A DNA stretch of 64,000 nt from Bacteroidetes bacterium RIFCSPLOWO2_12_FULL_35_15 (GCA_001769385.1 MEPB01000006.1:24182-88181), one strand, 5' to 3'. Positions 27,285-64,000 are shown, numbered from the stretch's first letter. Notes: generated from the sequence alone by a model not told the origin. Translations and numbers: made by a program.

Positions 27285-27321
27285 ACATCAAACAGCTCAT
27301 CCAATGCACAACCCAATTTCA

Positions 27322-27696: not shown

Positions 27697-27703
27697 TTGT
27701 TTA

Positions 27704-46259: not shown

Positions 46260-46649
46260 TGAATAAGGAAGATAGAGATCCATTGACAGAAAAAATTATT
46301 GCTTGTGCCTTTCAAGTGCATAATGAGATTGGCCCAGGCTTTCTTGAAAAAATATATCATAAGGCCATGATTCTTTTTTTTAAAATTGATGGATTAGATG
46401 TTGAAACAGAAAAGTAATTTAATGTGATATTTTAAAATGAAAATGTTGGAAAATTTCGTTGTGATTTGGTTGTGGAAAATAAAGTAAATAGTGGAGTTCA
46501 AAGCAGTATCAGGATATCTTCCTGTTTTGTTTGAGCATCAGGTTCTTTCTTATCTAAAAGCATCAGGAAAAAGTACAGGCTTAATTATAAATTTTGGAAA
46601 TAAAAGTTGTGAAATAAGAAGATTAATATCAAACCAAAAATCGATGTAA
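46259..46649 (+). pseudogene. Frameshifted GxxExxY-family gene remnant.
   Basis: Frame 1 gives MNKEDRDPLTEKIIACAFQVHNEIGPGFLEKIYHKAMI...ETEK*. Other frames downstream encode GKFRCDLVVENKV... and ...SYLKASGKSTGLIINFGNKSCEIRRLISNQ. It is collinear with the intact paralogue at 49026 but is broken by stops and frameshifts. Confidence 0.55.
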
Positions 46650-46679
46650 TCTTTCTTTAATCTTGTAATCTTATTTAAT

Positions 46680-48350
46680 ATGAAAGTAGATAAAATATTA
46701 ATTTCCATTTTCCAGCGTTCCTTCAAATCCATTACAGATGAGATGAGTATTTCGCTGACTAAAACTACACGATCTCCAATTCTTTGTGAAGCGAAGGATT
46801 TTGTAACGGGTCTGTATGATGCAAAAGGACAGATGTTAGAGCAAACAGAGAATCTTCCGATCCTGTCTTTTTCTTTGGGGCCTGTTTGTAAACATCTTTT
46901 AGAAGTATATGGAAAAGAAATTTATCCCGGTGATGTGATTATTCACAATGATGTATTCACCATGGGAAATCAGAATAATGATGTGGCCATTTTCAAACCA
47001 ATATTTTTGGGAGAAACATTAATTGGTTGGTCTGCTGCAAAAGGGCATCAGGCCGATATTGGGGGGGCAGTTCAAGGTGGTTATAATCCAAATGCAACTG
47101 AAGTTTGGCAGGAAGCAATTCGTATTCCGGCAACCAAATTGTACGACAGAGGCAAACTTCGTAAAGATGTTTGGAATCTGATCTTTGCAAACATTCGTTT
47201 GAATATTGTGGAACAGGATATCAAAGCACAGATCGGTGCTTGTACGCTTGGAGAAAGGCGTTTTCAGGCTTTTGTGGAGAAATACGGATTAGAATGTTTT
47301 GAACTGCACAAGCAAGAGTTGTTCAATGCAACTGAAAAAATGATGCGTCAGGAAATAAAAGAAATTCCAAATGGAGTTTATTTTGGCGAAAGTATGGTGT
47401 ATTACGATGGAAAACATCCCGGAAGTAAATTCCCTATTAAGGCAAAAATAACGGTGAAGAATGAGGACATTGAATTTGATTTTTCAAAATCATCACCTCA
47501 AACAACAGGCTTTGTAAATGGAATTTATACATCAACCTGTTCTGCAATAACACTTACTTTCCTTCAAATGGTGAATCCAAATATTCCGCACAACGAAGGA
47601 ATGATCAAGCCTTTAAAATATATTGTACCGGAAGGTACAATTTTGAATGCCCGATATCCGGCCGCAACAACTTTTGGAAATCATTTATGTCCGCAAGTGG
47701 CTGATAGTATTTTTAAAGCATTGTCAAAAGCGGTTCCTACACGTATCACAGCGGGTTGGAATCATTTGCTTTGTTCATTGTTCACAGGAAATCATCCGCG
47801 AACAAATCGCAAATACGTGGACATCTGTTTCCTGGGAATGAAAGGTGGATCAGGTGCAATGTTAGGGGATGACGGGTATGATCACATTGGAATGATAGAT
47901 GCATCGGGTGGTGTGCTTGATCAGGATTATGAAATGTATGAGCAGCAAACTCCGCATTTAATAATGAAACATGAATATCTCTGCGATTCGGCAGGAGCAG
48001 GCAAATGGCGAGGTGGATTGGGAACAGAAACTATAATTAAAGTGGGAGCTAACAATACGAAAATGGTAGTGTTTGGTGATGGTGATGTGGTTCCTGCTTA
48101 TGGATTAAAAGGTGGTAAAGAAAGTATCTTGAATATTCTTGAATTGCGTTACCCGAATGGAAAAAAGAAAAGACCATACAGCAAAGATATTGTGGACGAT
48201 ATTCCTTCCGGAACTATTTATTATCAAGTTGCCGGTGGTGGCGGAGGTTACGGAAATCCAAAAGAAAGAGGAAAAGAGCAAGTGAAGATGGATGTGAAAA
48301 ATGGAATTGTTTCTAAGAAAGTTGCTGAGAAAGTTTATGGAGTAAAATGA
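46680..48350 (+). CDS. hyuB: Hydantoinase B/oxoprolinase family protein.
   Basis: 556 aa, paired with hyuA, with conserved Gly-rich segments (DGYDHIGMIDASGG...). Confidence 0.8.
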   Translation: MKVDKILISIFQRSFKSITDEMSISLTKTTRSPILCEAKDFVTGLYDAKGQMLEQTENLPILSFSLGPVCKHLLEVYGKEIYPGDVIIHNDVFTMGNQNNDVAIFKPIFLGETLIGWSAAKGHQADIGGAVQGGYNPNATEVWQEAIRIPATKLYDRGKLRKDVWNLIFANIRLNIVEQDIKAQIGACTLGERRFQAFVEKYGLECFELHKQELFNATEKMMRQEIKEIPNGVYFGESMVYYDGKHPGSKFPIKAKITVKNEDIEFDFSKSSPQTTGFVNGIYTSTCSAITLTFLQMVNPNIPHNEGMIKPLKYIVPEGTILNARYPAATTFGNHLCPQVADSIFKALSKAVPTRITAGWNHLLCSLFTGNHPRTNRKYVDICFLGMKGGSGAMLGDDGYDHIGMIDASGGVLDQDYEMYEQQTPHLIMKHEYLCDSAGAGKWRGGLGTETIIKVGANNTKMVVFGDGDVVPAYGLKGGKESILNILELRYPNGKKKRPYSKDIVDDIPSGTIYYQVAGGGGGYGNPKERGKEQVKMDVKNGIVSKKVAEKVYGVK

Positions 48351-49439: not shown

Positions 49440-49546
49440 TAGAACGATGGACTTAAATATTCGTAATTAGTAAATTCGTAATTAGTAGAACGATGGACTT
49501 AAATATTCGTAATTAGTAAATTCGTAATTAGTAGAACGATGGACTT
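49409..49546 (+). repeat. 3 x 46-bp tandem repeat built from ATTCGTAATTAGTA units. Each copy ends in ...agaacgATGGACTT, and the third copy supplies the start codon of the acyl-CoA dehydrogenase.
   Basis: Copies at 49409-49454, 49455-49500 and 49501-49546. Copies 2 and 3 are identical and copy 1 differs at 3 positions. Copies 1 and 2 encode only the mini-ORF MDLNIRN*. Confidence 0.8.
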
Positions 49547-50669
49547 TGAATTAAACGAAATACAAAAACAAATTCAACAAACTTTTCGAGACTTTACCGA
49601 TAGGAGAGTAAAACCTGTTGCTGGTAAATTAGATGAAGAAAAAAAGTTTCCTCACCAGCTTTTTAAAGAAGCCGGGGATCTGGGATTTTTTGGGATGCGT
49701 TATCCTGAAAGTGCAGGAGGAAGCGGATTGGATATTGTTTCCTACTCATTAGCTGTAATTGAAATGGCAAGAGGATCCTTGTCGCTGGCTGCTGTTTGTA
49801 CCATGCAATCATTAATGGGAACCTACTTTCTTTATCGTTTTGGTAATAAAGAGATCATTGAAAATTATTTTGATGAAGCCCTGAAAGGTAATAAAATTGG
49901 TGGTATTTGCATGACGGAGCCTAATGCAGGTTCCGATTTAATGGCAATTAAAACACTTGCAAAAGTTACTGATGATGGCTTTATTCTTAGCGGACAAAAG
50001 ACCTGGATCACATCAGCTCCGGTTGCTGATTTTTTTACGGTGCTTGCACGAACCGATAATCATGAAAAACTCTCCATATTTTTTGTGCCTGCTGATTTGA
50101 AAGGAGTGATTGTTGGAAAAAGTATTGAGAAAATGGGTGTGCGAGCTTCCGTAACCAGTGAAGTAGCTTTTGTTGATGTTCAGCTCCCGAAAAAATATTT
50201 GCTTGGCGAAATTGGTGGAGGAACAAAATGCCTTATTGAAATTCTTGCCGAGATCCGGATCATGACCGCTGCTCTTGCTATCGGAGTTGCAACAGCAGCT
50301 TATGAAGATGCTTTGAAATATGCCAATGAGCGTTCACAATTTGGAAAACCAATTGGGAAATTTCAGGCTGTACAAATGAAATTTGCGGACATGGCAGTGA
50401 AACTGGAAACATCCAAACATTATGTGATGTATGCAGCAAGCTTAAGTGATAAAAATCTCCCGCGTCAGAAAGAAGCAATGATAGCAAAGCTCTATGCTTC
50501 GGAATGTGCAGTAAATATATGTGATGAAGCATCCCGTGTACTTGCTTCTTATGGTTACGCAGTTGAATATAATGTAGAAAGGTATTTACGGGATTCTCGT
50601 TTTACGTTGATTGGTGGGGGAACCTCAGAAATATTAAAAATAAATATTGCAAAAGAATTAGGACTATGA
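49539..50669 (+). CDS. Acyl-CoA dehydrogenase.
   Basis: ACAD fold motifs: CMTEPNAGSDL, a C-terminal RYLRDSRFTLIGGGTSEI, and catalytic Glu context. Confidence 0.85.
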   Translation: MDFELNEIQKQIQQTFRDFTDRRVKPVAGKLDEEKKFPHQLFKEAGDLGFFGMRYPESAGGSGLDIVSYSLAVIEMARGSLSLAAVCTMQSLMGTYFLYRFGNKEIIENYFDEALKGNKIGGICMTEPNAGSDLMAIKTLAKVTDDGFILSGQKTWITSAPVADFFTVLARTDNHEKLSIFFVPADLKGVIVGKSIEKMGVRASVTSEVAFVDVQLPKKYLLGEIGGGTKCLIEILAEIRIMTAALAIGVATAAYEDALKYANERSQFGKPIGKFQAVQMKFADMAVKLETSKHYVMYAASLSDKNLPRQKEAMIAKLYASECAVNICDEASRVLASYGYAVEYNVERYLRDSRFTLIGGGTSEILKINIAKELGL

Positions 50670-52238: not shown

Positions 52239-52240
52239 AA

Positions 52241-52297
52241 TACGAATTGATACGAATAGAATCTACGAATACGAATTAGTACGAATATACGAATAGA
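52241..52297. repeat. TACGAAT heptamer array (intergenic).
   Basis: aaatacgaattgatacgaatagaatctacgaatacgaattagtacgaatatacgaatag. Confidence 0.7.
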
Positions 52298-52333
52298 TGA
52301 AATTAAGAATGTAAAATTCACAATTAAGAATTA

Positions 52334-53640: not shown

Positions 53641-54024
53641 ATGAAAGTACTACTTAGCAAACCCGGACTTGATGGTCATGATGTAGGAGTGAAAGTATTG
53701 GCTCACGGATTAATTGATGCAGGATTTCAGGTTGTTTATACCGGACTCCGGAAAACAATTGAAGAGATCGTTGATATAGCTGTAAAAAACAAAGTGGACA
53801 TTATAGGTATGTCGATACTCTCCGGGACACATTTAGTTCTTGCGCAAAGAATGAAAGAAGTTCTTGCGGAAAGAAAACTTAATATTCCATGGTTTGTCGG
53901 AGGAAATATTCCTGCAAAAGATATTGAAAAATTGAAAAAGCTGGGAGCACACAATGCATTCGCTACCGGGAGTAAAGTGGCAGATGTGGTTAATTATTTT
54001 AATTCGATAAAAGTAAAAGCATGA
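53641..54024 (+). CDS. Cobalamin-binding small subunit of an acyl-CoA (methylmalonyl-CoA-type) mutase.
   Basis: DxHxxG B12-binding motif (LDGHDVG); 127 aa. Its stop overlaps the start of the large subunit. Confidence 0.85.
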   Translation: MKVLLSKPGLDGHDVGVKVLAHGLIDAGFQVVYTGLRKTIEEIVDIAVKNKVDIIGMSILSGTHLVLAQRMKEVLAERKLNIPWFVGGNIPAKDIEKLKKLGAHNAFATGSKVADVVNYFNSIKVKA

Positions 54025-55643
54025 GCACAACAAAAACAAAAAAAACGGCTGAAGATCTGGGTGTAAAAAGAGTATATTTAGAATCAGGTCTTGAAGTTGA
54101 CCCTGTTTATACTGCAAGCGATACCGAAAATTCAAATAGTAAGAATGAAATGCCTGGAGTATATCCTTTTACCCGTGGTATTCATCCTACCATGTATCGT
54201 AATAAACCCTTTACGATTCGTCAGTATGCGGGTTTTGCTTCTCCTGAGGAAACTAATGAACGGTTTCAGTTTTTGATAAAAAATGGTCAGTCAGGATTAA
54301 ATGTGGCCTTTGATCTTCCAACTCAATGTGGTCTGGATTCAGACGACCTAAGAGCATTTGGTGAAGTAGGGAGAGTGGGTATGTCAATTGATACACTTCA
54401 TGATTTCGAAATTGCTTTTAAAAATATCGATCTTGATAAAATTACAGTTTCCATGACTATCAATGGTACTGCAATTATTTTGATTGCTATGTATATCGCC
54501 ATGGCAGAAAAAGCCGGATATGATATTTCAACGTTGAGAGGTACCGCACAAAATGATATTTTAAAAGAATTTATCGGTAGAGGAACATGGATCTTTCCGG
54601 TAGATAAATCGGTGAAATTGGTGGTAGATACCATTGAGTATTGTGCTAAACACGTACCTAAATATAGTCCTGTTAGCGTTTGTGGTTATCATATCCGGGA
54701 AAGTGGTGCTAATCCGATCCAGGAAATGGCTTATGCTTTCTGTATTGCAAAAGCTTATACGGATGGCGCCTTGAGTAGGGGAATTACCATTGATGATTTT
54801 GCATCACGATTGTCTTTCAATTTTGATATTTATGGAAATCTTTTTGAGCAGGTTGCAAAGTTCCGTGGTGGAAGAAGATTATGGGCAAAAATAATACGTG
54901 AAGAGTATGGTGCTAAAAAAGACAGCTCCTGCTGGTTACGGATGATCGCTGGTGGTGGCGGTGGCGGATTGACGAAAGAACAACCTGAAAATAATATTGT
55001 GAGAAGCGCATATTATGCATTGATCAGTGCTTTATCAGGAACCCAAACCATGGCGCTTTGCAGTTATGATGAAGCCTATACCATTCCTACAGAACACTCA
55101 GCTGAAATTTCATTACGTACCATGCAGATCATGATCCATGAAATGGGTATTTGCGATACTGTTGATCCATTGGGTGGTTCATACTATGTGGAAGCATTGA
55201 CCGATAAGTTTGAAGAAGAAATTAAGAAAGAAATGAAGACCGTTGAAAAATGGGATGGGATCGTGAATGCTGTTGCCACAGGGAAAATCCAAGAGTCGGT
55301 TTCTAAACAGGCTTATGTTAGAGAAATGGGAATGCAAACAGGAAAAGTCCCTAAAGTGGGAGTAAATATTTATACGAGAGAAGAAGAAGCGAAAGAGGTT
55401 GAATTTCATCCATACAATTTAGATGCAGCAAATGCTCAAATTGGAAAATTGAAAACAACAAAAGCTGCAAGAAATGCTGAAAAAGTAAAAGCTTGTCTGG
55501 CATTGGTAAAACAAGATGCAATCGATGATAAAAATTTGATGCCGGCAATTATTGCAGCTGTAAAAGAATATTGTACTGTTGGCGAAATTGTAACAGCCAT
55601 GAAAGAAGTATATGGAGAATTTAAAGAACCAATTTTCTTTTAA
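54021..55643 (+). CDS. Acyl-CoA mutase large (substrate-binding TIM-barrel) subunit. Substrate specificity unknown.
   Basis: 540 aa with methylmalonyl-CoA-mutase-like segments (YPFTRGIHPTMYRNKPFTIRQYAGF...). Confidence 0.8.
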   Translation: MSTTKTKKTAEDLGVKRVYLESGLEVDPVYTASDTENSNSKNEMPGVYPFTRGIHPTMYRNKPFTIRQYAGFASPEETNERFQFLIKNGQSGLNVAFDLPTQCGLDSDDLRAFGEVGRVGMSIDTLHDFEIAFKNIDLDKITVSMTINGTAIILIAMYIAMAEKAGYDISTLRGTAQNDILKEFIGRGTWIFPVDKSVKLVVDTIEYCAKHVPKYSPVSVCGYHIRESGANPIQEMAYAFCIAKAYTDGALSRGITIDDFASRLSFNFDIYGNLFEQVAKFRGGRRLWAKIIREEYGAKKDSSCWLRMIAGGGGGGLTKEQPENNIVRSAYYALISALSGTQTMALCSYDEAYTIPTEHSAEISLRTMQIMIHEMGICDTVDPLGGSYYVEALTDKFEEEIKKEMKTVEKWDGIVNAVATGKIQESVSKQAYVREMGMQTGKVPKVGVNIYTREEEAKEVEFHPYNLDAANAQIGKLKTTKAARNAEKVKACLALVKQDAIDDKNLMPAIIAAVKEYCTVGEIVTAMKEVYGEFKEPIFF

Positions 55644-55714: not shown

Positions 55715-56947
55715 ATGAAAAATAGAAATCAAATTACCGTATTATCTTTAGAACAAGCATTGGCTTTGCCTTTCGCTACCGAACGAATGGTGCAGCAAGG
55801 TTGGCGGGTAATTCGTATTGAGACTCCTTCCGAAGATGGTGGTGGAAATGCTGGTGATCCGAATCGTTATATAGGTTCTGATCTGGGTTATCATGATCTT
55901 CATTCCTATTACATTGCTCCGAATATAGGCAAAGAAGCAATTACGATAAATCTGAAAAAGAAAGAAGGACAAGATCTTCTTCTGAAAATAATTAAAGAAT
56001 TGAATGTGGATGTGTTTATGTGTAACACCTTACCAAAACGTTACAAACAACTTGGAATAGATTTTAATACACTTTCACAAGCTAATCCAAAATTAATTTG
56101 GTGTGGTATTTCTGCCATGGGGCCTGATTATCCGGAGCGCGCTGGTTACGATCCTGCATTGCAGGCATTGATGGGTTATACGTTTATGACGGGGGAACCG
56201 GATGGAAAACCTGTTCCTTGCGGAATCCCTATCATCGATCTGAAAGCAGGTGATGAAGCATTTACCCAAGTGATCTTGGCGATGCTGGAACAAAAAAACT
56301 CTCCTGTGGGAAGGGTTGGGGTGGGGGCAGGAAAAGAAATTCATATTTCCATGGCGCAATGTGCTGCCAGTTGGCTCATTACCGCTTTACCTCAATTGGC
56401 ATTTGTAAAAAACGAAAGCGAACTTTTTACGCGTAGTGGAAACGAACATCGCAGTTTTATTCCTTGCAATGCTTATCCGACAACAGATGGGTTTGTATAT
56501 CTCGCTATCGGGAATGATTTGCAATGGAACAAATTCACTTCACTAAAAGGATTCGAGAAATTGTTTTCTGAGAGTAGAAAAACAAATGAAGGCCGCATGA
56601 AGGATAAAGAGAATATTTATCATGAGATCGGTGAGATAACAAAGAATTATACAACAAAAGAATTTTCAGATCTGTGTTTGTCGATTAATTTATCTGTTGC
56701 TCCTGTTAACTCTATCAAAGAAGTGGCGGCATTAGAGTTTGTGAATAAGAACATGCTGAAAACGAGTCTTCCAGATGGAAGAGAAGCAAAACTTTCACCC
56801 GCATCATACAATACTGAATATTTAGAAAAAAATAATTTTTTATTAAAGTGTTCACCACGATTGGGAGAACAAAATGAGATCGTTTATAAAGAAATTGGAT
56901 ATAGTGAAAGTGAAATTAAGCAGCTTGAAGAGGAAAGAATCATTTAA
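55715..56947 (+). CDS. Family III CoA-transferase (CaiB/BaiF-like).
   Basis: 410 aa, CaiB-like fold. Confidence 0.75.
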   Translation: MKNRNQITVLSLEQALALPFATERMVQQGWRVIRIETPSEDGGGNAGDPNRYIGSDLGYHDLHSYYIAPNIGKEAITINLKKKEGQDLLLKIIKELNVDVFMCNTLPKRYKQLGIDFNTLSQANPKLIWCGISAMGPDYPERAGYDPALQALMGYTFMTGEPDGKPVPCGIPIIDLKAGDEAFTQVILAMLEQKNSPVGRVGVGAGKEIHISMAQCAASWLITALPQLAFVKNESELFTRSGNEHRSFIPCNAYPTTDGFVYLAIGNDLQWNKFTSLKGFEKLFSESRKTNEGRMKDKENIYHEIGEITKNYTTKEFSDLCLSINLSVAPVNSIKEVAALEFVNKNMLKTSLPDGREAKLSPASYNTEYLEKNNFLLKCSPRLGEQNEIVYKEIGYSESEIKQLEEERII

Positions 56948-57052
56948 TAAAATTTGATATGTAAACCCCTGTCAGGGTTTCAAACCCTGACAGGGGTATT
57001 ATTGCTTGGTTTAAGATGTATGTGATAATCAACAATTCTAATTTCCCAATAA

Positions 57053-60000
57053 ATGCAAAAACAGACCATTGACATATTAACTTCTTTCAGTAAAGCACAA
57101 AAACGTTGTGTTATGGGAAATGTTGCTGTTGCTCGTGGAGCGATTGAAGCAGGAGTGAATGGTGTATTCTCCTATCCGGGAACACCTTCCACAGAAATTT
57201 CAGAAGTATTTAATTTTGTCAATGATTTTCAAAGTAAAAAAGATTTTCAAAAAAAATATCCTAAACAAACCGAACATAAAATTTATTTTGAATACAGCAT
57301 CAATGAAAAAATTGCATTAGAAAAAGCAATTGCTTATTCCATAGGAAATAAAAGTGCCATGTGTGTGATGAAAAATGTGGGGATGAATGTGGCCTCGGAT
57401 GCTTTGATGAGCGTTACCTATCAAACAATTATTGCTCCTTTGGTTATTGTTCTTTGCGATGATCCGGGCTGTTTTTCTAGTTCAAACGAACAGGATTCTC
57501 GCTATTGGGGAAAATTTGCTTCTGTCCCAATGTTTAATCCGGCATCTCCGGAAGATGCATTATTAATGACAAAAACAGCTTTCTCGCTTTCTGCTCAATT
57601 ACGATTACCGGTTATTGTTCGTATGACTACTCGTGTAGATCATTCTCGCGGAGTGATTTCGTATGGTAATTTTGATCCGAAAGAAACAATTGCTCATTTT
57701 GATAGATTACCTCAACATATTAATATTCCTGCACGTACAGCAACCGCTCATAAAACATTACTAGATAAACTAGATTCGGAACTTTTTGTTATACTGAATA
57801 AAAAGTTCAATACTGTTTTTCCATCTGTTAAAACCGGGAAGGAGCAAATGGGAATTATTGCGAGTGGTGTTTCTTTGGTGTATGCTCAGGAATTGTTATC
57901 AAGAAACAGCGAAACAAAAAATATTTCTGTTCTAAAAGTTGGTGTGATTCATCCTTTCCCTGAAAAAGATATTTTAACGTTTTTAAAGAAAGGAATTAAA
58001 AGAGTTTTAATTCTTGAAGAACTGGATCCACTCCTTGAAAATGATGTTCGAGTGATCATTCAAAAAAATAAAATTGATTGCGAAGTTATTGGGAAAGGAT
58101 ATTCAGGATTAAATGTTACGGGTGAATATACGTTGGATATTATTAGAAATGTTCTTGAAAAATTTACATCTTATTCTTTATGCAAAAAAGAAAATCAACC
58201 ATTACCTGATGTCGATAAACTCCTTGCCAGTTTACCGCCTCGTCCGCCAACACTTTGTGCAGGATGTCCTCATCGGGCAACATTCTATGCACTTAAATTA
58301 GCTGTCCCTCGGGAGAATGGAAATATTATTTTGTGTGGAGACATCGGCTGTTCAGGATTGGGAGCATTACCTCCAATTCAAATGATCGATACGATCAACC
58401 ACATGGGAATGAGTGTATCGATGGCACAAGGACTTTCGGAGGCAATGCATTTGAAACCAGAACAAGGGAAAGTTATAGCGATGCTGGGTGATGGAACATT
58501 TTTTCATTCCGGTGTGGCATCTTTGATCAATGCAATTTATACACGTGCAAATATTACGGTTATTATTTTTGATAACAGAACTATTGGAATGACGGGCCAT
58601 CAGGATCATCCCGGTGCCACTCAACATTCAAAATATCAACAGATTGATATTTATTCGTTGGTAAAAGGATTGGGAGTGGAATGTGTTGAAACCATGATGC
58701 CTTTTAATTTGAAGGATACTTATGAGAAAGTAAAAAATGCAATTAACCATATAGGGGTTTCTGTTTTAATTGCAAGGGCTCCTTGTATTTTCCTTCCTGA
58801 ATTTAAAGATGGGGCACTCGTTAGAAAGAGTTTGCATGTTGACCAAAGCAAATGCAATACCTGTTTTAATCATTGCGATGTAAGTATTTCATGTTCAAAA
58901 GAATATTCGGGGAAAGAAAGTCTTGATCGCGCAAGAGCAAAAGTTGTTGCAAAAGTACAGGTGTATGCCCAGGAACAATTATGCCCGGCAAACATTTGTA
59001 ATCACGGATTTTTTAATTCTATCCTAAGTAAAAATTATAAATCAGCTTTAGAAATTGTTAGGGATAAAATGTTGTTTGCCGCTGTATGTGGGGATGTTTG
59101 CCATAAACCGTGTGAATCGTTGTTCAGAACTGAGAATGGGAAATCTGTTCCGATAAAAAAATTAAAAAACTTTGTTAGCAACATTGAAGATAATTTCAAT
59201 GATTTTTCGAAACAAATTTCACGAGCAAAAGTTTCAAATAAGAAGAATAAAAAGATTGCTGTTATCGGTTCAGGTCCTGCAGGGTTAAGTTCCGCATATG
59301 ATCTTGTTCAGGCAGGATATGATGTAACTGTTTTTGAGAAGAACGCTTCCGCTGGGGGAATGATCCGTTTTGTTATTCCTGATTTCAGGATGAACAAAAA
59401 TAATATGGACAAGGAAATGAATGTGCTGAAGGAAATGGGTGTTCGTTTTAAATTTAATTCAATTCTTGGAAAAAATATTACGATAGAAAAACTTTCAAGC
59501 GATTACGATGCGGTTATTCTGGCAATAGGAATGTGGGATTCAGCGACATTAGAGATTGTTGAAAAAAATGTTTCTATTGGCAAAAAGTTTGACGCGATCA
59601 ATTTCTTACGTTCCTACAATGAAAAGAATCTTAAAATAAAATCAGGTTCAACAATATTTATTGTTGGTGGTGGAAATAGTGCCATGGATGCTGCAAGAGC
59701 TGCAAAAAAATTCAACAAAAAAAATAATGTAATAGTTTCTTGCATTGAAAAGACAGATTCAATGCCGGCATTTGTGCAGGAAGTAGAAGAAGCAAAAAGG
59801 GAAGGCATCCGCATTATTGATGGTTGTTTTGCAGATTTGATCGTTGAAAAAAAGAATAAAATATCGATCTCATTAAAATCGTTTGATAAGAAGAAATATC
59901 TTGAAACTATAAAAGCTGATTATATAATTACAGCAATTGGCCAACGTGGCGATGCATCTGCATTAAATGAAAAATTAAGCCTGGATACAAATTTCAGAGT

Positions 60001-60415
60001 TAAGTCTGCAAGCAAGTACAAAAATGTTTTTTTTGCTGGTGATATTGCTTCAGGTAATCATATTTCTTTGATTGGTGCTATTGGCAGTGGAAAGAAAGCT
60101 GCAGTGAATGCAAGAAAGTTATTGGAAGGATATAAGTTTGAATACGAAGGAGAGTTTGCTTTAGATAAGTTGTCGAATTCTGAGAATGGAAATAAAAATA
60201 TACTTAAGAAATTTGAAACCATAGATTTTGAAATTGAAAATGTTCATGACTTTAATTTATATCAACCTTGCGCCAAGTGTGATCATTGTATCGAAAATTT
60301 TGGTTGTCCGGCTATGGTAAAAGTGAATGGAAAAATAATAATTGATGATAAACGCTGTACCCGTTGTGGTTTGTGTATAGATGTTTGTCCGAATGGAGCT
60401 ATTGATTGGGTTTAA
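57053..60415 (+). CDS. iorA: Indolepyruvate/2-oxoacid:ferredoxin oxidoreductase alpha subunit fused to a GltD-like FAD/NAD(P)-binding domain and a C-terminal 4Fe-4S ferredoxin.
   Basis: IorA motifs (CAGCPHRATFYALK and a TPP-binding region) within residues ~1-650. Then KKIAVIGSGPAGLSSAYDL...VGGGNSAMDAARAA (glutamate synthase small-chain-like), ending in CTRCGLCIDVCPNGAI. Confidence 0.7.
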   Translation: MQKQTIDILTSFSKAQKRCVMGNVAVARGAIEAGVNGVFSYPGTPSTEISEVFNFVNDFQSKKDFQKKYPKQTEHKIYFEYSINEKIALEKAIAYSIGNKSAMCVMKNVGMNVASDALMSVTYQTIIAPLVIVLCDDPGCFSSSNEQDSRYWGKFASVPMFNPASPEDALLMTKTAFSLSAQLRLPVIVRMTTRVDHSRGVISYGNFDPKETIAHFDRLPQHINIPARTATAHKTLLDKLDSELFVILNKKFNTVFPSVKTGKEQMGIIASGVSLVYAQELLSRNSETKNISVLKVGVIHPFPEKDILTFLKKGIKRVLILEELDPLLENDVRVIIQKNKIDCEVIGKGYSGLNVTGEYTLDIIRNVLEKFTSYSLCKKENQPLPDVDKLLASLPPRPPTLCAGCPHRATFYALKLAVPRENGNIILCGDIGCSGLGALPPIQMIDTINHMGMSVSMAQGLSEAMHLKPEQGKVIAMLGDGTFFHSGVASLINAIYTRANITVIIFDNRTIGMTGHQDHPGATQHSKYQQIDIYSLVKGLGVECVETMMPFNLKDTYEKVKNAINHIGVSVLIARAPCIFLPEFKDGALVRKSLHVDQSKCNTCFNHCDVSISCSKEYSGKESLDRARAKVVAKVQVYAQEQLCPANICNHGFFNSILSKNYKSALEIVRDKMLFAAVCGDVCHKPCESLFRTENGKSVPIKKLKNFVSNIEDNFNDFSKQISRAKVSNKKNKKIAVIGSGPAGLSSAYDLVQAGYDVTVFEKNASAGGMIRFVIPDFRMNKNNMDKEMNVLKEMGVRFKFNSILGKNITIEKLSSDYDAVILAIGMWDSATLEIVEKNVSIGKKFDAINFLRSYNEKNLKIKSGSTIFIVGGGNSAMDAARAAKKFNKKNNVIVSCIEKTDSMPAFVQEVEEAKREGIRIIDGCFADLIVEKKNKISISLKSFDKKKYLETIKADYIITAIGQRGDASALNEKLSLDTNFRVKSASKYKNVFFAGDIASGNHISLIGAIGSGKKAAVNARKLLEGYKFEYEGEFALDKLSNSENGNKNILKKFETIDFEIENVHDFNLYQPCAKCDHCIENFGCPAMVKVNGKIIIDDKRCTRCGLCIDVCPNGAIDWV

Positions 60416-60595: not shown

Positions 60596-61189
60596 ATGAC
60601 AAAAAAAAGTAAAATTATTATTGCCGGTGTAGGAGGACAAGGAGTTGTTTTTCTTACCGAAATTCTTGTAGATGCAGCTATTCGTGCCGGAATAAATGCT
60701 GCAACAAGTGAAATTCACGGACTTTCACAACGTGGTGGTTCTGTAGTAGCAGGAGTGACATTCGGAGAAAATACATTTGGATTTGTTGAAAATGCTGCAG
60801 CGGATTTTTTACTTGGATTGGAATTGTTGGAAGCACAACGTGCATTAAATTATTTACATTGCAATAGCATTGCAATTGTTGACAATACAAAGATACTTCC
60901 TCATTCTGTAAATGCCAAAAAAGGAGTTTATCCTGATACTGAAAAGTTTATCAGTTATTTGAAAAAAAATATCAAAGGAACTATTTTTATTGAGGAAGAA
61001 TTTTTAGGTTTGACACCTGTGATGCGTAATTTAGTTGTCTTGGGAAAAGCGGCATCAGTAAAAAGTTTTCCGGTAAAATCGAAATTTATTGAAGAAGCAA
61101 TTAAAAATAATACCAGAGGTGATGCTGAAAAATCACTTAAGGTTTTTAGGGAAGCATTGAATAGTGTAAACAAAATTAAAGCAGTTTAA
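60596..61189 (+). CDS. iorB: Indolepyruvate oxidoreductase beta subunit (2-oxoacid:ferredoxin oxidoreductase gamma-type).
   Basis: 197 aa, N-terminal IIIAGVGGQGVVFLTEIL. Confidence 0.75.
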   Translation: MTKKSKIIIAGVGGQGVVFLTEILVDAAIRAGINAATSEIHGLSQRGGSVVAGVTFGENTFGFVENAAADFLLGLELLEAQRALNYLHCNSIAIVDNTKILPHSVNAKKGVYPDTEKFISYLKKNIKGTIFIEEEFLGLTPVMRNLVVLGKAASVKSFPVKSKFIEEAIKNNTRGDAEKSLKVFREALNSVNKIKAV

Positions 61190-61226: not shown

Positions 61227-61307
61227 AATATTCGACCCCGAAGGGGGCGCATGTTAATAGCAAAATAAGATATTTCTATAAATATTAGACCCCGAAGGGG
61301 TCGAATA
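61227..61307 (+). terminator. Pair of related GC-core hairpins (REP-like; probable terminator after iorB).
   Basis: aatattCGACCCCgaaGGGGGCG and aatattaGACCCCgaaGGGGTCgaata. The 5' half of the first is complementary to the 3' half of the second. Confidence 0.45.
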
Positions 61308-61347: not shown

Positions 61348-61854
61348 ATGAGTAAAAAGAAAAAATTAGTTGTTCAGAATGTGGAAGTAACTTTTATTTT
61401 GAATGGAAAAAAGGTTACAAAACAAATTCGCCCTTCTCTGTTATTGATTGATTTTATTCGGGACGAATTATCTCTGGCTGGTACTAAACCTGGCTGTTTA
61501 GAAGGTGAATGTGGTGCTTGTTCTGTATTGATTGATGGTGCAGCAGTAAATTCATGTATGTATCTGGCAATAAATATTCATGGTAAAAATCTAACGACTA
61601 TTGAAGGATTATCTGATGTTAATGGCTTGGATCCGGTTCAGGATTCTATGATAAAACATGGCGCTGTGCAGTGTGGATTCTGTTCTTCCGGTATGACAAT
61701 GAGCATTAAATCGATGCAGATCAAATATAAAAAAGATAAAAAGAAGCCATCAAAAGAGGAGATAAAAAAAGGTTTGGAAGGGAACTTATGCAGATGTACC
61801 GGATATGTGAAAATTATTGAAGCAGCAGAAGCAGTGATAAATAAGGTTAAATAG
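61348..61854 (+). CDS. (2Fe-2S)-binding small subunit of a xanthine dehydrogenase/CO dehydrogenase-family molybdoenzyme.
   Basis: GCLEGECGACSV, CGFCSSGM and LCRCTGY motifs. Confidence 0.85.
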   Translation: MSKKKKLVVQNVEVTFILNGKKVTKQIRPSLLLIDFIRDELSLAGTKPGCLEGECGACSVLIDGAAVNSCMYLAINIHGKNLTTIEGLSDVNGLDPVQDSMIKHGAVQCGFCSSGMTMSIKSMQIKYKKDKKKPSKEEIKKGLEGNLCRCTGYVKIIEAAEAVINKVK

Positions 61855-61898: not shown

Positions 61899-64000
61899 AT
61901 GAGTAAAAAATTAAATGTAATTGGAACACCAATACCGAAGATAGATGCAGGTATTCGTATCACGGGAAAAGCGGTTTATGGTCAGGATGTAAAACTACCG
62001 GGAATGCTTCATGGTGCTATTCTTCGTGCTGAGTATCCATGCGCGGAATTTACAATTGATGTTTCTGCTGCAAGAAAATTGCCCGGAGTTATTGCTGTTA
62101 TTACAGCGGATGATATTGATTGCAATAACATTAGCTATAAAAAGGATCATCCGATATTAAAAAAAGGAGAAGTAAATTGTATTCGTGATGAAATAGCAGC
62201 TGTTGCCGCTGAAAGTAAAGAGATCGCTGAAAGAGCCATTAAACTTATCAAAGTAAAGTACAAAGAAAAGAAAGGGATTTATGATCCTTTCGATGCATTA
62301 AAGCCTAATGCTCCTCTTGTAAATAAATATTTGAAGGATAGTAAATTCGCGAAAAACATTTCTGATATTTTCTTCTACGAACATGGAAATCTGGAAGAAC
62401 AAAAAAAGAAAAGCGCTGTTATTATCAGCAAACGTTTCGTATTACCTCGCGTAACACATTGTTGTATGGCAACAAGCAACATCACCGCTGATTATTCCTC
62501 TGTCACCAAACGCTTAACATTATATAGTTCAACACAAGTTCCGTTTTTATATCAACGCGACATGGCACATGCTTTGAAAATGAATGCCTCCGATATTCGT
62601 GTTATTCAAGTGGTGATCGGTGGCGGATTTGGAAGTAAATTAGATATGTATCCTTTTGAACCAATTGCTGCTATTCTTTCTATAAAAACAGGAAAGCCTG
62701 TTCAGATAATTTTTGACCGTGAAGAGGAATTTATTGCTTCACCTACGAGGCAGAATATGGTGATTGACTTAATAGCAGGGGCTGATAAAAATGGGAAATT
62801 CACTTTTCGTGATGTTACTATTGTAAAAGATAATGGTGCATTCACTTCCTGGGGCGCAACCACTCCTTTTGTAATGATGCAGACTTTTTCATCACTCTAT
62901 CAAATGCCTGCTTGTCGGTTTGAATCAAAAGCCGTTTATACAAATAATATTTCAGCAGGTTCTTTCCGTGGTTATGGGAATCCACAAGCTGCTTTCGCTA
63001 TCGAAAGTTGTATTGATCTGATGGCCGATAAATTAGGAATGGATAAAGCAGAAATTCGTTTGCTTAATGCAAATTATGCAGGTGAAATAACAGGACAAGG
63101 AATGCACTACGACACTTGCGGACATATAGAAGCCTTGAAAACCGTTATTGAAAAATCGGATTTACGAAATACAAATAAAGAAACTTTACGAAATACTAAT
63201 AAATACGAATCTACGAATAAAGAAAAAGAAACAGTCAACACAGATTCGTATATTCGAAAAAATCCGTATTTCGTAGATAATGTAGATAGATATAAGCGGG
63301 GAGTGGGAATTGCTTCGATGATGCATGTTGGGGGTGGTGCTAAAATTTATCGATCAGATGGTTGCGGAACTACCTTAAAATTGGATGATTACGGACATCT
63401 GACTTTAATTACAGGCTCGAGCGAGATCGGTCAGGGCTCCGAAACTGTTTTGGCAATGATGGCTTCAGAGGAACTTACAATTCCAATGAATAAAATAAAA
63501 GTTATTAATACGGATACGGATGTAAAGCCTTGGGATGTTGGGGTGCATGCATCCCGTACCAGTTTTGTAGCAGGGAATTCGGTGTTAGGTGCTGTTAAAA
63601 AATTAAAAGAAAAATTAAATCAAAAAGCTGCTGTACTTTTAAAATGTACGATTGAGAATTTGATCTATGAAAATGAAGAAATAAAAAATAGTGACGGAAG
63701 TAATTCTGTTCGAATAGAAAAAGTGGTTCGTGAAATGCATTTTGGAGGACAAAATGAGCTGTGTACGGTAAACCATTTTTATGAACCAACAAGTGATTTT
63801 CAGGATAAACAGTTCAAAGGAAATGTTTCAGGTACTTATGCATTTGCTGCGCAGTCAGCTGAAGTGGAAGTGGATACCTATACCGGAAATATTAAGGTAT
63901 TAAATATTCATGTTGCACAAGATGTGGGTAAAGTATTGAATCCACTAAACATCATGGGACAAATTGAAGGAGGTGTTTTGACTGGAGTGGGTTATGGAAT
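61899..64000 (+). CDS. Molybdopterin-binding large subunit of a xanthine dehydrogenase/aldehyde oxidase-family enzyme (3' end beyond the window). It contains an in-frame TACGAAT-repeat insertion.
   Basis: The product begins MSKKLNVIGTPIPKIDAGIRITGKAVYGQDVKLPGMLHGAILRAEYP. Typical MoCo-enzyme segments: RGYGNPQA, GSSEIGQG and VHASRTSFVAG. There is no stop through 64000. Confidence 0.85.
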   Translation, partial: MSKKLNVIGTPIPKIDAGIRITGKAVYGQDVKLPGMLHGAILRAEYPCAEFTIDVSAARKLPGVIAVITADDIDCNNISYKKDHPILKKGEVNCIRDEIAAVAAESKEIAERAIKLIKVKYKEKKGIYDPFDALKPNAPLVNKYLKDSKFAKNISDIFFYEHGNLEEQKKKSAVIISKRFVLPRVTHCCMATSNITADYSSVTKRLTLYSSTQVPFLYQRDMAHALKMNASDIRVIQVVIGGGFGSKLDMYPFEPIAAILSIKTGKPVQIIFDREEEFIASPTRQNMVIDLIAGADKNGKFTFRDVTIVKDNGAFTSWGATTPFVMMQTFSSLYQMPACRFESKAVYTNNISAGSFRGYGNPQAAFAIESCIDLMADKLGMDKAEIRLLNANYAGEITGQGMHYDTCGHIEALKTVIEKSDLRNTNKETLRNTNKYESTNKEKETVNTDSYIRKNPYFVDNVDRYKRGVGIASMMHVGGGAKIYRSDGCGTTLKLDDYGHLTLITGSSEIGQGSETVLAMMASEELTIPMNKIKVINTDTDVKPWDVGVHASRTSFVAGNSVLGAVKKLKEKLNQKAAVLLKCTIENLIYENEEIKNSDGSNSVRIEKVVREMHFGGQNELCTVNHFYEPTSDFQDKQFKGNVSGTYAFAAQSAEVEVDTYTGNIKVLNIHVAQDVGKVLNPLNIMGQIEGGVLTGVGYG
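63162..63275 (+). repeat. Intragenic TACGAAT/ATTCGTA heptamer array, in frame.
   Basis: gatttacgaaatacaaataaagaaactttacgaaatactaataaatacgaatctacgaataaag...cagattcgtatattcgaaaaaatccgtatttcgtag. It translates in the gene frame as ...SDLRNTNKETLRNTNKYESTNKEKETVNTDSYIRKNPYFVDNV... Confidence 0.7.

What the first reader, a model, noticed from the sequence alone, without database searches (positions are those of the whole stretch)
57053..60415. Unusual three-module fusion: IorA, a GltD-like NAD(P)H flavoprotein, and a ferredoxin
Canonical indolepyruvate:ferredoxin oxidoreductase alpha subunits are about 600-650 aa. This 1120-aa ORF appends a glutamate-synthase-small-chain/PreT-like FAD/NAD(P)-binding domain (GSGPAGLSSAYDL, VGGGNSAMDAARAA) and a terminal 4Fe-4S motif (CTRCGLCIDVCPNGAI). 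This would couple 2-oxoacid oxidation directly to pyridine nucleotides, avoiding free ferredoxin, which suits a non-fermentative Bacteroidota host.
Basis: partly seen in the sequence, partly recalled or inferred. Interest (0 to 1): 0.5.

Follow-up and report, generated by a model that had tools for sequence, protein, structure and literature searches.

The report
Flavoprotein-carrying indolepyruvate oxidoreductase in tryptophan-breakdown cluster
This is a real and widespread, but apparently unstudied, version of a 2-oxoacid-oxidising enzyme that carries its own NAD(P)-reducing flavoprotein inside the chain, and it sits in a conserved gene cluster that most likely breaks down tryptophan through indoleacetyl-CoA.

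Summary
A ~470-aa GltD/NfnB-like flavoprotein module (two [4Fe-4S], FAD, NAD(P) site) is inserted into IorA, just before IorA's own C-terminal two-cluster ferredoxin domain, so the "terminal ferredoxin" is native IorA. IorB follows.

The fusion is common. More than 120 full-length protein clusters share 54-67% identity with it, and it was found in 53 species genomes, mostly Bacteroidota. About 36 further clusters at 25-53% identity reach Arenicellales and Deltaproteobacteria MAGs. I found no paper describing it.

In 51 of 53 genomes it lies in one conserved cluster: ATP-dependent lactamase, IaaF-type (GGG) acyl-CoA dehydrogenase, B12 mutase, CoA-transferase, fusion, IorB, Mo-hydroxylase, aminotransferase. 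This matches the "iaa" indoleacetate pathway of Aromatoleum but has no CoA ligase.

Best reading: a ferredoxin-independent indolepyruvate:NAD(P)+ oxidoreductase that makes indoleacetyl-CoA from tryptophan. The NADP-specifying YRR motif is CIE here, which predicts NAD+. All function is inferred; nothing was assayed. It is a new variant of a known kind, of moderate interest.

The parts
57053..60415 (+). Fused IorA gene (1120 aa): the IOR alpha subunit with an internal NAD(P)-flavoprotein insertion.
   Evidence: Continuous ORF. Domain hits. More than 120 full-length homologues.
57101..58837 (+). IorA catalytic core, aa 17-595. It holds the TPP site (G479-D480-G481 ... N508) and the four Cys of the TPP-proximal [4Fe-4S] cluster (C402, C405, C433, C578).
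   Evidence: TIGR03336 profile positions 2-565. 38% identity to canonical IorA P0161 residues 13-560. The residues are invariant in 118 close and 32 divergent sequences.
58838..60268 (+). Inserted GltD/NfnB-like module, aa 596-1072. The Fer4_20 domain has ligands for two [4Fe-4S] clusters (C601, C604, C614, C644, C649, C679, C683, C687; position 608 is Glu in most homologues). It also has the FAD GxGxxG (739-744), the NAD(P) site GGGNSAMD (872-879), C897-I898-E899 in place of YRR, and a poorly conserved linker at 1031-1068.
   Evidence: NF009410, 285 bits for this piece alone. PDB sequence hits to StnC, NfnABC and NfnB. Foldseek TM 0.71-0.75, normalised to target length, against NfnI-L, Xfn and NfnB. 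Conservation.
60269..60412 (+). Native IorA C-terminal ferredoxin domain, aa 1073-1120. It has 8 invariant Cys for two [4Fe-4S] clusters.
   Evidence: Best NCBIfam hit is IOR_alpha profile 551-595/595 at 45.5 bits; the next family scores 33. BLASTP 47% identity to P0161 residues 557-603, E 4e-11. Adding this domain does not raise the PRK12771 score.
60596..61189 (+). IorB (197 aa), the beta subunit of IOR.
   Evidence: PF01558 POR, E 2.5e-23. IOR_beta NCBIfam models at 120-130 bits. Found directly downstream of the fusion wherever the contig extends far enough.
55715..56947 (+). Family III CoA-transferase (IaaL-like position in the cluster).
   Evidence: PF02515, E 8e-59. Conserved immediately upstream of the fusion.
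53641..55643 (+). B12-binding small subunit (53641-54024) and methylmalonyl-CoA-mutase-like large subunit (54021-55643); IaaGH-like.
   Evidence: PF02310 and PF01642. Conserved in the related loci.
49539..50669 (+). IaaF-type acyl-CoA dehydrogenase. It has GGG where ordinary members have YEG (...LIGGGTSEI...).
   Evidence: Translation. The GGG motif is diagnostic of the benzylmalonyl-CoA dehydrogenase subclass according to PMC8360864.
50838..53506 (+). HMG-CoA-synthase-like/DUF35 (BbsA-like) fusion protein (50838-52238) and thiolase (52334-53506).
44112..48350 (+). ATP-dependent hydantoinase/caprolactamase-like A subunit (44112-46259) and B subunit (46680-48350).
   Evidence: Pfam Hydantoinase_A and Hydantoinase_B. 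Caprolactamase alpha at 699 bits and beta at 394 bits.
61348..61854 (+). [2Fe-2S] small subunit of a xanthine-dehydrogenase-family Mo-hydroxylase.
   Evidence: PF01799. XdhC-like at 167 bits.
61899..64000 (+). Mo-binding large subunit of the hydroxylase, cut by the window end. On the source contig it is 793 aa and is followed by a CysK-like PALP gene, the FAD subunit and a HisC-family aminotransferase.
   Evidence: L001 gene table. Closest model is 4-hydroxybenzoyl-CoA reductase alpha at 536 bits. hisC model at 296.5 bits for the aminotransferase.

Best explanation
The gene encodes the alpha subunit of an indolepyruvate (arylpyruvate) oxidoreductase whose electron acceptor is built into the polypeptide.

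Shown by sequence: a GltD/NfnB-type module (two [4Fe-4S] clusters, FAD and a pyridine-nucleotide site) is inserted at the start of IorA's own C-terminal two-cluster ferredoxin domain. IorB is encoded next to it.

Inferred mechanism: TPP-dependent oxidative decarboxylation of indolepyruvate with CoA gives indoleacetyl-CoA and CO2. The two electrons leave one at a time through the proximal cluster (C402/C405/C433/C578), then IorA's two ferredoxin-domain clusters, then the two Fer4_20 clusters, to FAD. FAD then reduces NAD(P)+ by hydride transfer. No free ferredoxin is needed.

Inferred coenzyme: this protein has C-I-E where NADP-specific relatives have Y-R-R, so NAD+ is the predicted acceptor.

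Inferred pathway role: the HisC-family aminotransferase at the end of the cluster would feed the enzyme, giving tryptophan -> indolepyruvate -> indoleacetyl-CoA. The product would enter an iaa-type pathway: Mo-hydroxylase, ATP-dependent lactam hydrolase, CoA-transferase, B12 mutase, then decarboxylating IaaF-type dehydrogenase. In this reading the enzyme replaces the indoleacetate-CoA ligase IaaB of Aromatoleum.
For: Architecture and cofactor sites:
- Domain hits.
- Split BLASTP match to a canonical IorA.
- All 21 Fe-S Cys ligands and the TPP, FAD and NAD motifs are invariant in 118 homologues; the ligands stay largely conserved, with exceptions at C649 and C679, in 32 sequences (the query plus 31 divergent representatives).
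- The AF2 model (pLDDT 79) matches NfnI-L, Xfn and NfnB with TM 0.71-0.75.

Partner and context:
- IorB is always adjacent.
- 51 of 53 species-level loci carry the same neighbours: CoA-transferase, mutase, IaaF-like dehydrogenase, hydantoinase, XDH subunits and aminotransferase.
- The link persists at 46% identity (Arenicellales) and at 32% (Deltaproteobacteria MAG).
- The acyl-CoA dehydrogenase carries the IaaF-specific GGG motif (PMC8360864).
- There is no AMP-forming CoA ligase in the window cluster or in the compact Krumholzibacteria operon. The Aromatoleum pathway starts with IaaB making indoleacetyl-CoA.
- In Panacibacter only fusion, IorB and aminotransferase are kept together, which supports these three as a functional unit.

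Chemistry:
- A two-subunit aromatic OFOR was shown to convert indolepyruvate to indoleacetyl-CoA (bioRxiv 10.64898/2026.01.29.702580).

Coenzyme:
- YRR binds the 2'-phosphate in NfnB, and its presence or absence tracks NADP versus NAD use in DsrL enzymes (PMC7596348).
- Here the motif is C[IVL]E in 106 of 118 (Glu at the third position in 109), YRR in 9 of 118, and YRR in 22 of 31 divergent fusions.
Against: - No biochemical data exist for any member that I could find.
- The IOR_alpha equivalog score (589.4) is below NCBI's cut-off (650.9).
- IORs are broad arylpyruvate enzymes, so the substrate is inferred from context only.
- The same architecture also occurs outside iaa-like clusters, so the module is not tied to this pathway.
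- Inter-cluster distances could not be measured, because no coordinates were available and pTM is only 0.61.
- The aminotransferase passes the hisC cut-off and could be a genuine HisC.
- The NAD-versus-NADP call rests on one motif. Its alignment to NfnB 310-312 was done by position arithmetic, good to within one residue.
Confidence: 0.55

Rival explanations
1. The enzyme is a generic NAD(P)-linked arylpyruvate or branched-chain 2-oxoacid oxidoreductase with no special tie to indolepyruvate. It would supply acyl-CoAs or reducing power in general, and its place in the cluster would reflect co-regulation of aromatic amino-acid catabolism rather than a dedicated first step.
For: The architecture occurs as a stand-alone fusion + IorB pair in several lineages and as fusion + IorB + aminotransferase in Panacibacter. 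One divergent member lies next to a class Ib (Tyr/Trp) tRNA synthetase gene. From general knowledge, characterised IORs accept phenylpyruvate and 4-hydroxyphenylpyruvate as well as indolepyruvate.
Against: The gene order is conserved in 51 of 53 genomes, and the link recurs at 32-46% identity in other phyla. The clusters lack any other route to indoleacetyl-CoA, since no CoA ligase is present.
Confidence: 0.2
2. The inserted flavoprotein is a shared redox hub for the cluster rather than the sink for IOR's own electrons. It would exchange electrons between NAD(P)(H) and other cluster enzymes (the Mo-hydroxylase, or the IaaF-type dehydrogenase), or it would reduce an external ferredoxin from NAD(P)H.
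For: The module plus the terminal ferredoxin domain reproduces the DsrL layout, and DsrL works as an NAD(P)H:acceptor oxidoreductase for a partner enzyme (PMC7596348). The physiological acceptor of IaaF is unknown (PMC8360864). The [2Fe-2S] subunit gene follows IorB.
Against: The Mo-hydroxylase has its own FAD subunit on the source contig. The fusion is also found without any of these partners. Covalent placement between the TPP core and IorA's own ferredoxin domain points to an intramolecular route.
Confidence: 0.12
3. The NfnB-like FAD performs flavin-based electron confurcation or bifurcation. Low-potential electrons from 2-oxoacid oxidation would be combined with higher-potential electrons from a second donor to reduce NAD(P)+. 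Alternatively, electrons from the flavin would be split between two acceptors.
For: The closest solved relatives are the bifurcating subunits NfnB/NfnI-L and the NfnABC and StnC complexes. The flavin is flanked by two separate pairs of [4Fe-4S] clusters.
Against: No NfnA-like [2Fe-2S]/FAD partner, and no second nucleotide site, is encoded in or next to the gene. GltD, DPD and DsrL use the same module without bifurcation (PMC8097209; PMC7596348). Simple downhill transfer (about -500 mV to -320 mV, textbook values) needs no coupling.
Confidence: 0.06
4. Artefact: two adjacent genes (iorA and a gltD-like gene) were merged by a sequencing or assembly frameshift.
For: None was found. Unfused DsrL-like genes next to OFOR subunit genes are mentioned in PMC7596348, so separate genes do exist elsewhere.
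Against: The same continuous architecture is present in more than 150 independent clusters and in a finished isolate genome. IorA's own C-terminal domain lies after the insert, and a simple read-through of two genes cannot produce that arrangement.
Confidence: 0.01

Closest known systems
Canonical two-subunit indolepyruvate:ferredoxin oxidoreductase (IorAB; TIGR03336 / TIGR03334)
   Same: The TPP core, the proximal-cluster cysteines, the C-terminal 8-Cys ferredoxin domain and an adjacent IorB are all shared. Identity to a 607-aa IorA is 38% over the core and 47% over the ferredoxin domain. The expected chemistry is the same: arylpyruvate + CoA -> arylacetyl-CoA + CO2.
   Different: A ~470-aa flavoprotein is inserted before the ferredoxin domain. 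The predicted acceptor is a pyridine nucleotide instead of free ferredoxin. The score is below the equivalog cut-off.
GltD / NfnB / SudA / DPD N-terminal (PreT) family of NAD(P)H:[4Fe-4S] flavoprotein modules
   Same: The Fer4_20 two-cluster domain, the FAD and NAD(P) Rossmann folds and the overall fold are shared. The module is recognised as a reusable unit in GltS, DPD, Nfn and AegA (PMC8097209).
   Different: The host enzyme here is an OFOR, which that review does not list. The YRR NADP motif is replaced by C-I-E. No NfnA- or GltB-type partner is present.
DsrL (NAD(P)H:acceptor oxidoreductase of dissimilatory sulfite reductase)
   Same: The order is the same: N-terminal two-cluster domain, FAD/NAD(P) domains, a linker, then a C-terminal two-cluster ferredoxin domain. 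Both families split into YRR and non-YRR types, which in DsrL tracks NADP versus NAD use (PMC7596348).
   Different: There are no dsrAB genes in the context. The C-terminal ferredoxin domain here is IorA-derived. The unit is covalently joined to a TPP enzyme.
Pyridine-nucleotide-linked 2-oxoacid oxidoreductases: pyruvate:NADP+ oxidoreductase of Euglena/Cryptosporidium, 2-oxoglutarate:NADP+ oxidoreductase KorABC and phenylglyoxylate:NAD+ oxidoreductase PadEFGHI of Azoarcus/Aromatoleum (from my own knowledge; the primary papers were not held)
   Same: The functional idea is the same: an OFOR whose low-potential electrons are passed to NAD(P)+ by an attached flavoprotein, which makes the enzyme independent of ferredoxin.
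   Different: PNO uses a C-terminal cytochrome-P450-reductase-type FMN/FAD domain appended to a PFOR. KorC and PadF are separate subunits. Here a GltD-type module is nested inside the IorA chain, and the substrate class is arylpyruvates.
iaa (anaerobic indoleacetate degradation) operon of Aromatoleum aromaticum / A. evansii
   Same: The enzyme set is the same: hydantoinase-like A and B subunits, a Mo-hydroxylase, a family III CoA-transferase, a two-subunit B12 mutase, an IaaF-type GGG acyl-CoA dehydrogenase and a thiolase.
   Different: There is no IaaB CoA ligase. Instead the cluster has an aminotransferase plus the flavoprotein-carrying IorAB. The hosts are Bacteroidota and allied phyla, not denitrifying Betaproteobacteria. 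No hydratase/dehydrogenase fusion was seen in the window.

Membership tests
IorA (IOR alpha subunit, TIGR03336) | TPP-binding motif (GDG ... N) in a TPP_enzyme_C domain | tested here: met
   PF02775 over aa 430-572, E 3.5e-21. G479, D480, G481 and N508 are invariant or nearly so in 118 sequences.
IorA (IOR alpha subunit, TIGR03336) | Four Cys for the TPP-proximal [4Fe-4S] cluster | tested here: met
   C402, C405, C433 and C578 are invariant in 118 close and 32 divergent sequences.
IorA (IOR alpha subunit, TIGR03336) | C-terminal 2x[4Fe-4S] ferredoxin domain | tested here: met
   aa 1073-1117 match profile positions 551-595/595 and canonical IorA residues 557-603 at 47% identity.
IorA (IOR alpha subunit, TIGR03336) | Adjacent IorB gene | tested here: met
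   60596..61189 carries PF01558 and matches IOR_beta models. The gene is conserved in the related loci.
IorA (IOR alpha subunit, TIGR03336) | Score above the curated equivalog cut-off, and an uninterrupted chain of ~600-650 aa | tested here: not met
   589.4 bits against a cut-off of 650.9. A ~470-aa insertion splits the match.
IorA (IOR alpha subunit, TIGR03336) | Indolepyruvate-dependent reduction of an acceptor, with formation of indoleacetyl-CoA | not testable with these tools
   This needs an enzyme assay. Context supports it.
GltD/NfnB-like NAD(P)H:Fe-S flavoprotein module | Fer4_20 domain with ligands for two [4Fe-4S] clusters | tested here: met
   PF14691. C601, C604, C614, C644, C649, C679, C683 and C687 are invariant in the 118 close homologues but not in the divergent set, where C649 is Cys in 23 of 32 and C679 in 16 of 32. 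Position 608 is mostly Glu, in line with the Glu ligand reported for NfnB.
GltD/NfnB-like NAD(P)H:Fe-S flavoprotein module | FAD GxGxxG, a second nucleotide site GGGxxAxD, and the family fold | tested here: met
   Motifs at 739-744 and 872-879 are invariant. Foldseek TM 0.71-0.75 to NfnI-L, Xfn and NfnB.
GltD/NfnB-like NAD(P)H:Fe-S flavoprotein module | YRR motif that binds the 2'-phosphate of NADP(H) | tested here: not met
   C897-I898-E899 here. C[IVL]E in 106 of 118 (Glu at position 899 in 109) and YRR in 9 of 118. Motif role from PMC7596348.
Nfn transhydrogenase / glutamate synthase holoenzymes | Partner subunit (NfnA with [2Fe-2S]/FAD, or GltB) encoded alongside | tested here: not met
   Neither is present in the window or on the source contig.
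DsrL | N-terminal Fd domain / FAD-NAD(P) / linker / C-terminal Fd domain layout | tested here: met
   The same order of elements is found at aa 596-1120. Layout as described in PMC7596348.
DsrL | Genomic association with dsrAB, and not linked to OFOR subunit genes | tested here: not met
   No dsr genes are present. The module is fused to IorA and next to IorB. PMC7596348 explicitly excludes OFOR-linked homologues.
iaa-type indoleacetate degradation cluster | IaaF-subclass acyl-CoA dehydrogenase with GGG in place of YEG | tested here: met
   ...RFTLIGGGTSEILK.... Criterion from PMC8360864.
iaa-type indoleacetate degradation cluster | Hydantoinase-like A/B subunits, Mo-hydroxylase, family III CoA-transferase and two-subunit B12 mutase in one cluster | tested here: met
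   Pfam and NCBIfam hits. Conserved synteny.
iaa-type indoleacetate degradation cluster | IaaB indoleacetate-CoA ligase | tested here: not met
   No AMP-binding gene lies between 44 kb and the end of the cluster on the source contig, or in L057. AMP-binding genes are present near the Arenicellales version.
Pyruvate:NADP+ oxidoreductase (PNO) | PFOR fused to a C-terminal flavodoxin/FNR-type (P450-reductase-like) domain | tested here: not met
   No flavodoxin or FNR-type Pfam hit. The module is Pyr_redox_2/Fer4_20 and it is internal. The definition of PNO is from my own knowledge.

The most novel reading that the evidence does not exclude
The NfnB-type flavin nested in IOR may be a confurcation site. 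It would pair the very low-potential electrons from indolepyruvate oxidation with higher-potential electrons from another dehydrogenase of the same cluster, either the IaaF-type benzylmalonyl-CoA dehydrogenase (whose physiological acceptor is still unknown) or the Mo-hydroxylase. All of these electrons would then leave as NADH. That would explain why this IOR variant in particular travels with the iaa-like cluster across phyla. It would also settle the open question of how IaaF is re-oxidised.
Probability: 0.05. Interest if true: 0.8.

Novelty: new variant of a known kind. Interest (0 to 1): 0.5.

Why it matters
If the inference holds, many Bacteroidota, including aerobic isolates such as Panacibacter, and several other phyla oxidise arylpyruvates with an OFOR that needs no ferredoxin. 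The GltD/NfnB adapter module would gain a host enzyme class (2-oxoacid oxidoreductases) that is absent from a 2021 review of that module.

It would also point to a widespread route from tryptophan to 2-aminobenzoyl-CoA that enters the "anaerobic" iaa pathway through indolepyruvate rather than through free indoleacetate. That matters for auxin and indole turnover in soils, sediments and waters.

The family contains natural YRR and CxE variants, which offers a ready-made test of NADP versus NAD specificity. Databases currently name these proteins only "FAD-dependent oxidoreductase" or "IorA".

Tried and rejected
- **Literature.** Ten full-text searches found no description of an IorA-GltD fusion or of this Bacteroidota cluster. 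The primary papers on Azoarcus KorABC and on the iaa cluster (2003, 2012) are not held, so those comparisons rest on memory or on secondary sources.
- **PDB by sequence.** No solved structure matches the IorA core at E <= 1e-5. Foldseek hits were dominated by the flavoprotein module, so the fold of the IorA part got no independent confirmation.
- **Single origin of the insertion.** In a crude neighbour-joining tree of the IorA core (37 fused and 96 canonical sequences), the close family plus the Arenicellales sequence form a clean clade of 9. The divergent fused proteins are scattered among canonical IorAs. I treat this as unresolved, not as evidence for several origins. A first attempt used too strict a motif filter and misclassified most of the fused proteins.
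- **The idea that the C-terminal ferredoxin domain came in with a DsrL/PRK12771-like protein.** Rejected. The PRK12771 score is the same with and without the domain (283.9 vs 285.2 bits), and the domain matches IorA best.
- **4-hydroxybenzoyl-CoA-reductase-like reverse electron flow from IOR to the Mo enzyme.** Considered and set aside. The FAD subunit is 288 aa and matches the HcrB model only over residues 2-117. It therefore seems to lack the extra cluster-bearing insertion that, from memory, characterises HcrB.
- **Intergenic repeats near the gene.** Checked; they are only local hairpins.
- **Alignment to NfnB.** HMMER alignments to NfnB did not print the target residues, so YRR was aligned by position arithmetic and by the family's own YRR members.

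Full report
**1. Observation**

The ORF at 57053..60415 on the + strand starts with ATG, encodes 1120 aa and has no internal stop.

Pfam finds TPP_enzyme_C (430-572), Fer4_20 (641-712), Pyr_redox_2 (734-1001) and Fer4 (1095-1118). NCBIfam finds IOR_alpha TIGR03336 over 17-615 (589 bits, two stretches) and NF009410 'NAD(P)-binding protein' over 598-1117. The next gene, 60596..61189, is IorB.

The identical protein is on five metagenome contigs. The longest is ENA ERZ27254759 k141_2748788, at 88.4 kb.

**2. Topology: an insertion, not an appendage**

BLASTP against a canonical 607-aa IorA (P0161) gives two collinear matches. P0161 residues 13-560 align with window residues 20-604 (38% identity). 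P0161 residues 557-603 align with window residues 1073-1117 (47% identity, E 4e-11).

Scanned alone, the last 70 aa hit IOR_alpha profile positions 551-595 of 595 at 45.5 bits. The next family scores 33 bits. The piece 596-1072 alone scores 285 bits for PRK12771, the same as with the C-terminus attached.

Hence a ~470-aa GltD/NfnB-like module sits inside IorA, exactly at the first Cys motif of IorA's own two-cluster ferredoxin domain.

**3. Cofactor sites**

I aligned the query with 117 full-length homologues (118 sequences in all). The following are invariant or nearly so:
- C402, C405, C433 and C578, the proximal cluster
- C601, C604, C614, C644, C649, C679, C683 and C687, the two Fer4_20 clusters
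- the eight Cys at 1073-1112
- the TPP motif, the FAD GxGxxG and GGGNSAxD

Position 608 is Glu in most homologues, in line with the Glu ligand described for NfnB. The same pattern largely holds in 32 sequences (the query plus 31 divergent fused representatives). C428 drops out there, and C649 (Cys in 23 of 32) and C679 (16 of 32) are less conserved.

Predicted content: TPP, five [4Fe-4S] clusters and FAD.

An AlphaFold2 model (pLDDT 79, pTM 0.61) matches NfnI-L, Xfn and NfnB with TM 0.71-0.75 normalised to target length, and also matches the NfnABC, StnC, DPD and GltD structures. By sequence, the best PDB relatives are 9bov_A, 8oh5_C, 9n5u_A and 4ylf_B.

**4. NAD or NADP**

In NfnB, Y310-R311-R312 hold the 2'-phosphate. 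In DsrL enzymes, YRR goes with strict NADP(H) use and its absence goes with NAD(H) use (PMC7596348).

The window protein has C897-I898-E899 at this place (position arithmetic on the HMMER alignment). In the family the motif is C[IVL]E in 106 of 118 sequences (Glu at the third position in 109) and literally YRR in 9 of 118. Among 31 divergent fused representatives, 22 have YRR and 7 have [CSA]xE.

I therefore predict NAD+ for this protein. This is an inference from one motif.

**5. Distribution**

- The 5.8-billion-protein search returned 120 listed clusters. Nearly all are full length at 53-67% identity. The named ones come from Bacteroidota (Panacibacter, Flavobacteriales, Crocinitomicaceae, Saprospiraceae, Cytophagales), Calditrichota, Krumholzibacteria, Hatepunaea and a 'Competibacteraceae' bin. 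The contig from that bin carries a T9SS-tail protein.
- A scan of one genome per species with only six exact peptide patterns found 53 loci. Most cover essentially the whole protein, and a few are cut at contig ends.
- The exhaustive search of 50%-identity representatives found 36 clusters with the order core -> GltD module (25-53% identity). In 33 of them a C-terminal ferredoxin-domain match follows the module. One, P0146, has the ferredoxin domain before the module. Members are annotated from Arenicellales and Deltaproteobacteria MAGs.

The fusion is therefore common. Source annotations call it 'FAD-dependent oxidoreductase' or 'indolepyruvate ferredoxin oxidoreductase alpha subunit'.

**6. 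Genomic context: the main new finding**

Around the gene, the window and its source contig encode, in order:
- hydantoinase/caprolactamase-like A and B subunits
- RidA
- a PD-(D/E)XK protein
- an acyl-CoA dehydrogenase
- an HMGCS-like/DUF35 protein
- a thiolase
- a B12-binding subunit and a mutase
- a family III CoA-transferase
- the fusion
- IorB
- the [2Fe-2S], Mo and FAD subunits of an XDH-family hydroxylase, with a CysK-like gene between the Mo and FAD subunits
- a HisC-family aminotransferase

I ran tblastn of these proteins against the 53 species loci. In 51 loci at least part of the same cluster flanks the fusion in the same order. The two exceptions are short contigs. A Krumholzibacteria contig shows the compact operon, with no CoA ligase.

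The link recurs in Arenicellales at 46% identity and in a Deltaproteobacteria MAG at 32%. Other divergent members stand alone with IorB or lie next to NuoEF-like genes. Panacibacter keeps only fusion, IorB and aminotransferase.

**7. What the cluster is**

The enzyme set matches the iaa operon for anaerobic indoleacetate degradation in Aromatoleum. There, indoleacetate is activated to indoleacetyl-CoA by IaaB, and the later steps use the CoA-transferase IaaL, the B12 mutase IaaGH and the decarboxylating benzylmalonyl-CoA dehydrogenase IaaF (PMC8360864; PMC9613470).

According to that paper, IaaF-subclass enzymes have GGG instead of the catalytic YEG and are always encoded in iaa-type operons. 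The window's dehydrogenase reads ...LIGGGTSEI....

The lactam-hydrolase-like A/B pair fits opening of a 2-oxindole ring. The Mo subunit is closest to 4-hydroxybenzoyl-CoA reductase alpha, an enzyme that acts on a CoA ester. There is no IaaB-type ligase in the cluster.

**8. Proposed mechanism**

Steps shown by sequence are the domain order, the ligands and the neighbours. The rest is inferred:
1. The aminotransferase converts tryptophan to indolepyruvate.
2. The fusion with IorB converts indolepyruvate plus CoA to indoleacetyl-CoA and CO2. This chemistry was demonstrated for a canonical aromatic OFOR in bioRxiv 10.64898/2026.01.29.702580.
3. Electrons pass from the proximal cluster to IorA's ferredoxin-domain clusters, then to the Fer4_20 clusters, then to FAD, then to NAD+.
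4. Indoleacetyl-CoA enters the iaa-type route.

The potential drop, from about -500 mV to -320 mV (textbook values), makes the step irreversible and independent of ferredoxin.

**9. Rivals**

- A generic arylpyruvate:NAD(P)+ oxidoreductase (0.2).
- A redox hub that serves the other cluster enzymes, as DsrL serves its partner (0.12).
- Flavin-based confurcation (0.06). This is attractive because the acceptor of IaaF is unknown, but no NfnA-like partner exists.
- An artefact (0.01).

**10. Comparison with known systems and novelty**

The closest relatives by membership are IorA (most features met, but the equivalog cut-off and the contiguous architecture are not) and the GltD/NfnB module family (met, except for YRR).

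By function it works like the pyridine-nucleotide-linked OFORs: PNO of Euglena, and KorABC and PadEFGHI of Azoarcus/Aromatoleum. These comparisons are from my own knowledge. It uses a different flavoprotein and a nested topology.

The 2021 review of the GltD-like module lists GltS, DPD, Nfn and AegA, and never mentions 2-oxoacid enzymes. The DsrL paper notes, and discards, DsrL-like genes next to OFOR subunit genes.

Ten literature searches found nothing on the fusion itself. I rate it a new variant of a known kind. It is common in databases, unnamed and uncharacterised, with a strongly conserved and informative context. Interest 0.5.

Noticed in passing
window 26146-28189 (- strand): A reverse-transcriptase gene (26146-27309) lies next to three related 74-nt repeats at 27211, 27396 and 27781 (82% identity). 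The repeats fall in or beside two small paralogous ORFs (27322-27696 and 27704-28189). This looks like a diversity-generating retroelement. I did not work out which copy is the template.
   Followed up: partly
window 1-32000: This region looks like a prophage or mobile element. It has a 1016-aa DnaG-type primase (28257-31307), an S49 peptidase (19133-20452), a DUF2793 protein (2391-4961) and many small ORFs on the minus strand with no family match.
   Followed up: no
window 34382-40633 (-): A 2083-aa protein whose only Pfam hit is a C-terminal T9SS sorting domain (Por_Secre_tail). This supports a Bacteroidota host.
   Followed up: no
L001 17295-18170 (source contig, just beyond the window end); also L003, L010, L013-L015, L027, L033: A CysK-like PLP enzyme (303 bits to cysK, below the cut-off) is inserted between the Mo subunit and the FAD subunit of the hydroxylase in a minority of clusters. 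PALP genes also lie near the Arenicellales and L062 versions. Its role in the pathway is unknown.
   Followed up: no
window 50838-53506: The thiolase is paired with a 466-aa protein that fuses an HMG-CoA-synthase-like domain to a BbsA/DUF35 OB-fold domain. No enoyl-CoA hydratase or 3-hydroxyacyl-CoA dehydrogenase was seen in the window cluster. About a quarter of the related loci lack this pair.
   Followed up: no
window 56965-56997, 61234-61249 and 61288-61303: A perfect 15-bp-stem hairpin lies between the CoA-transferase gene and the fusion gene. Two copies of GACCCCGAAGGGG(G/T)CG hairpins lie between IorB and the hydroxylase small subunit; 0.03 copies are expected by chance. The fusion-IorB gap is 180 bp here but 0-100 bp in most relatives.
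   Followed up: partly
L058 15278-18664: In a Deltaproteobacteria MAG, a 1128-aa sulfite/nitrite-reductase-like protein carries the same Fer4_20 + Pyr_redox_2 + Fer4 module, two genes away from the divergent IorA fusion. This is another example of the module being grafted onto an Fe-S enzyme.
   Followed up: no
P0146 (1005 aa): This is one divergent relative with the alternative order: IorA core, then the ferredoxin domain (544-590), then the GltD module (579-991). It is a truly appended version and may be an evolutionary intermediate.
   Followed up: no
L062 6254-9976: A divergent fusion (P0143, motif FSR) lies directly after NuoE/NuoF-like genes and a Fer2_4/Fer4/GCV_H protein gene. This hints at a different redox partnership in an anaerobe.
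   Followed up: no
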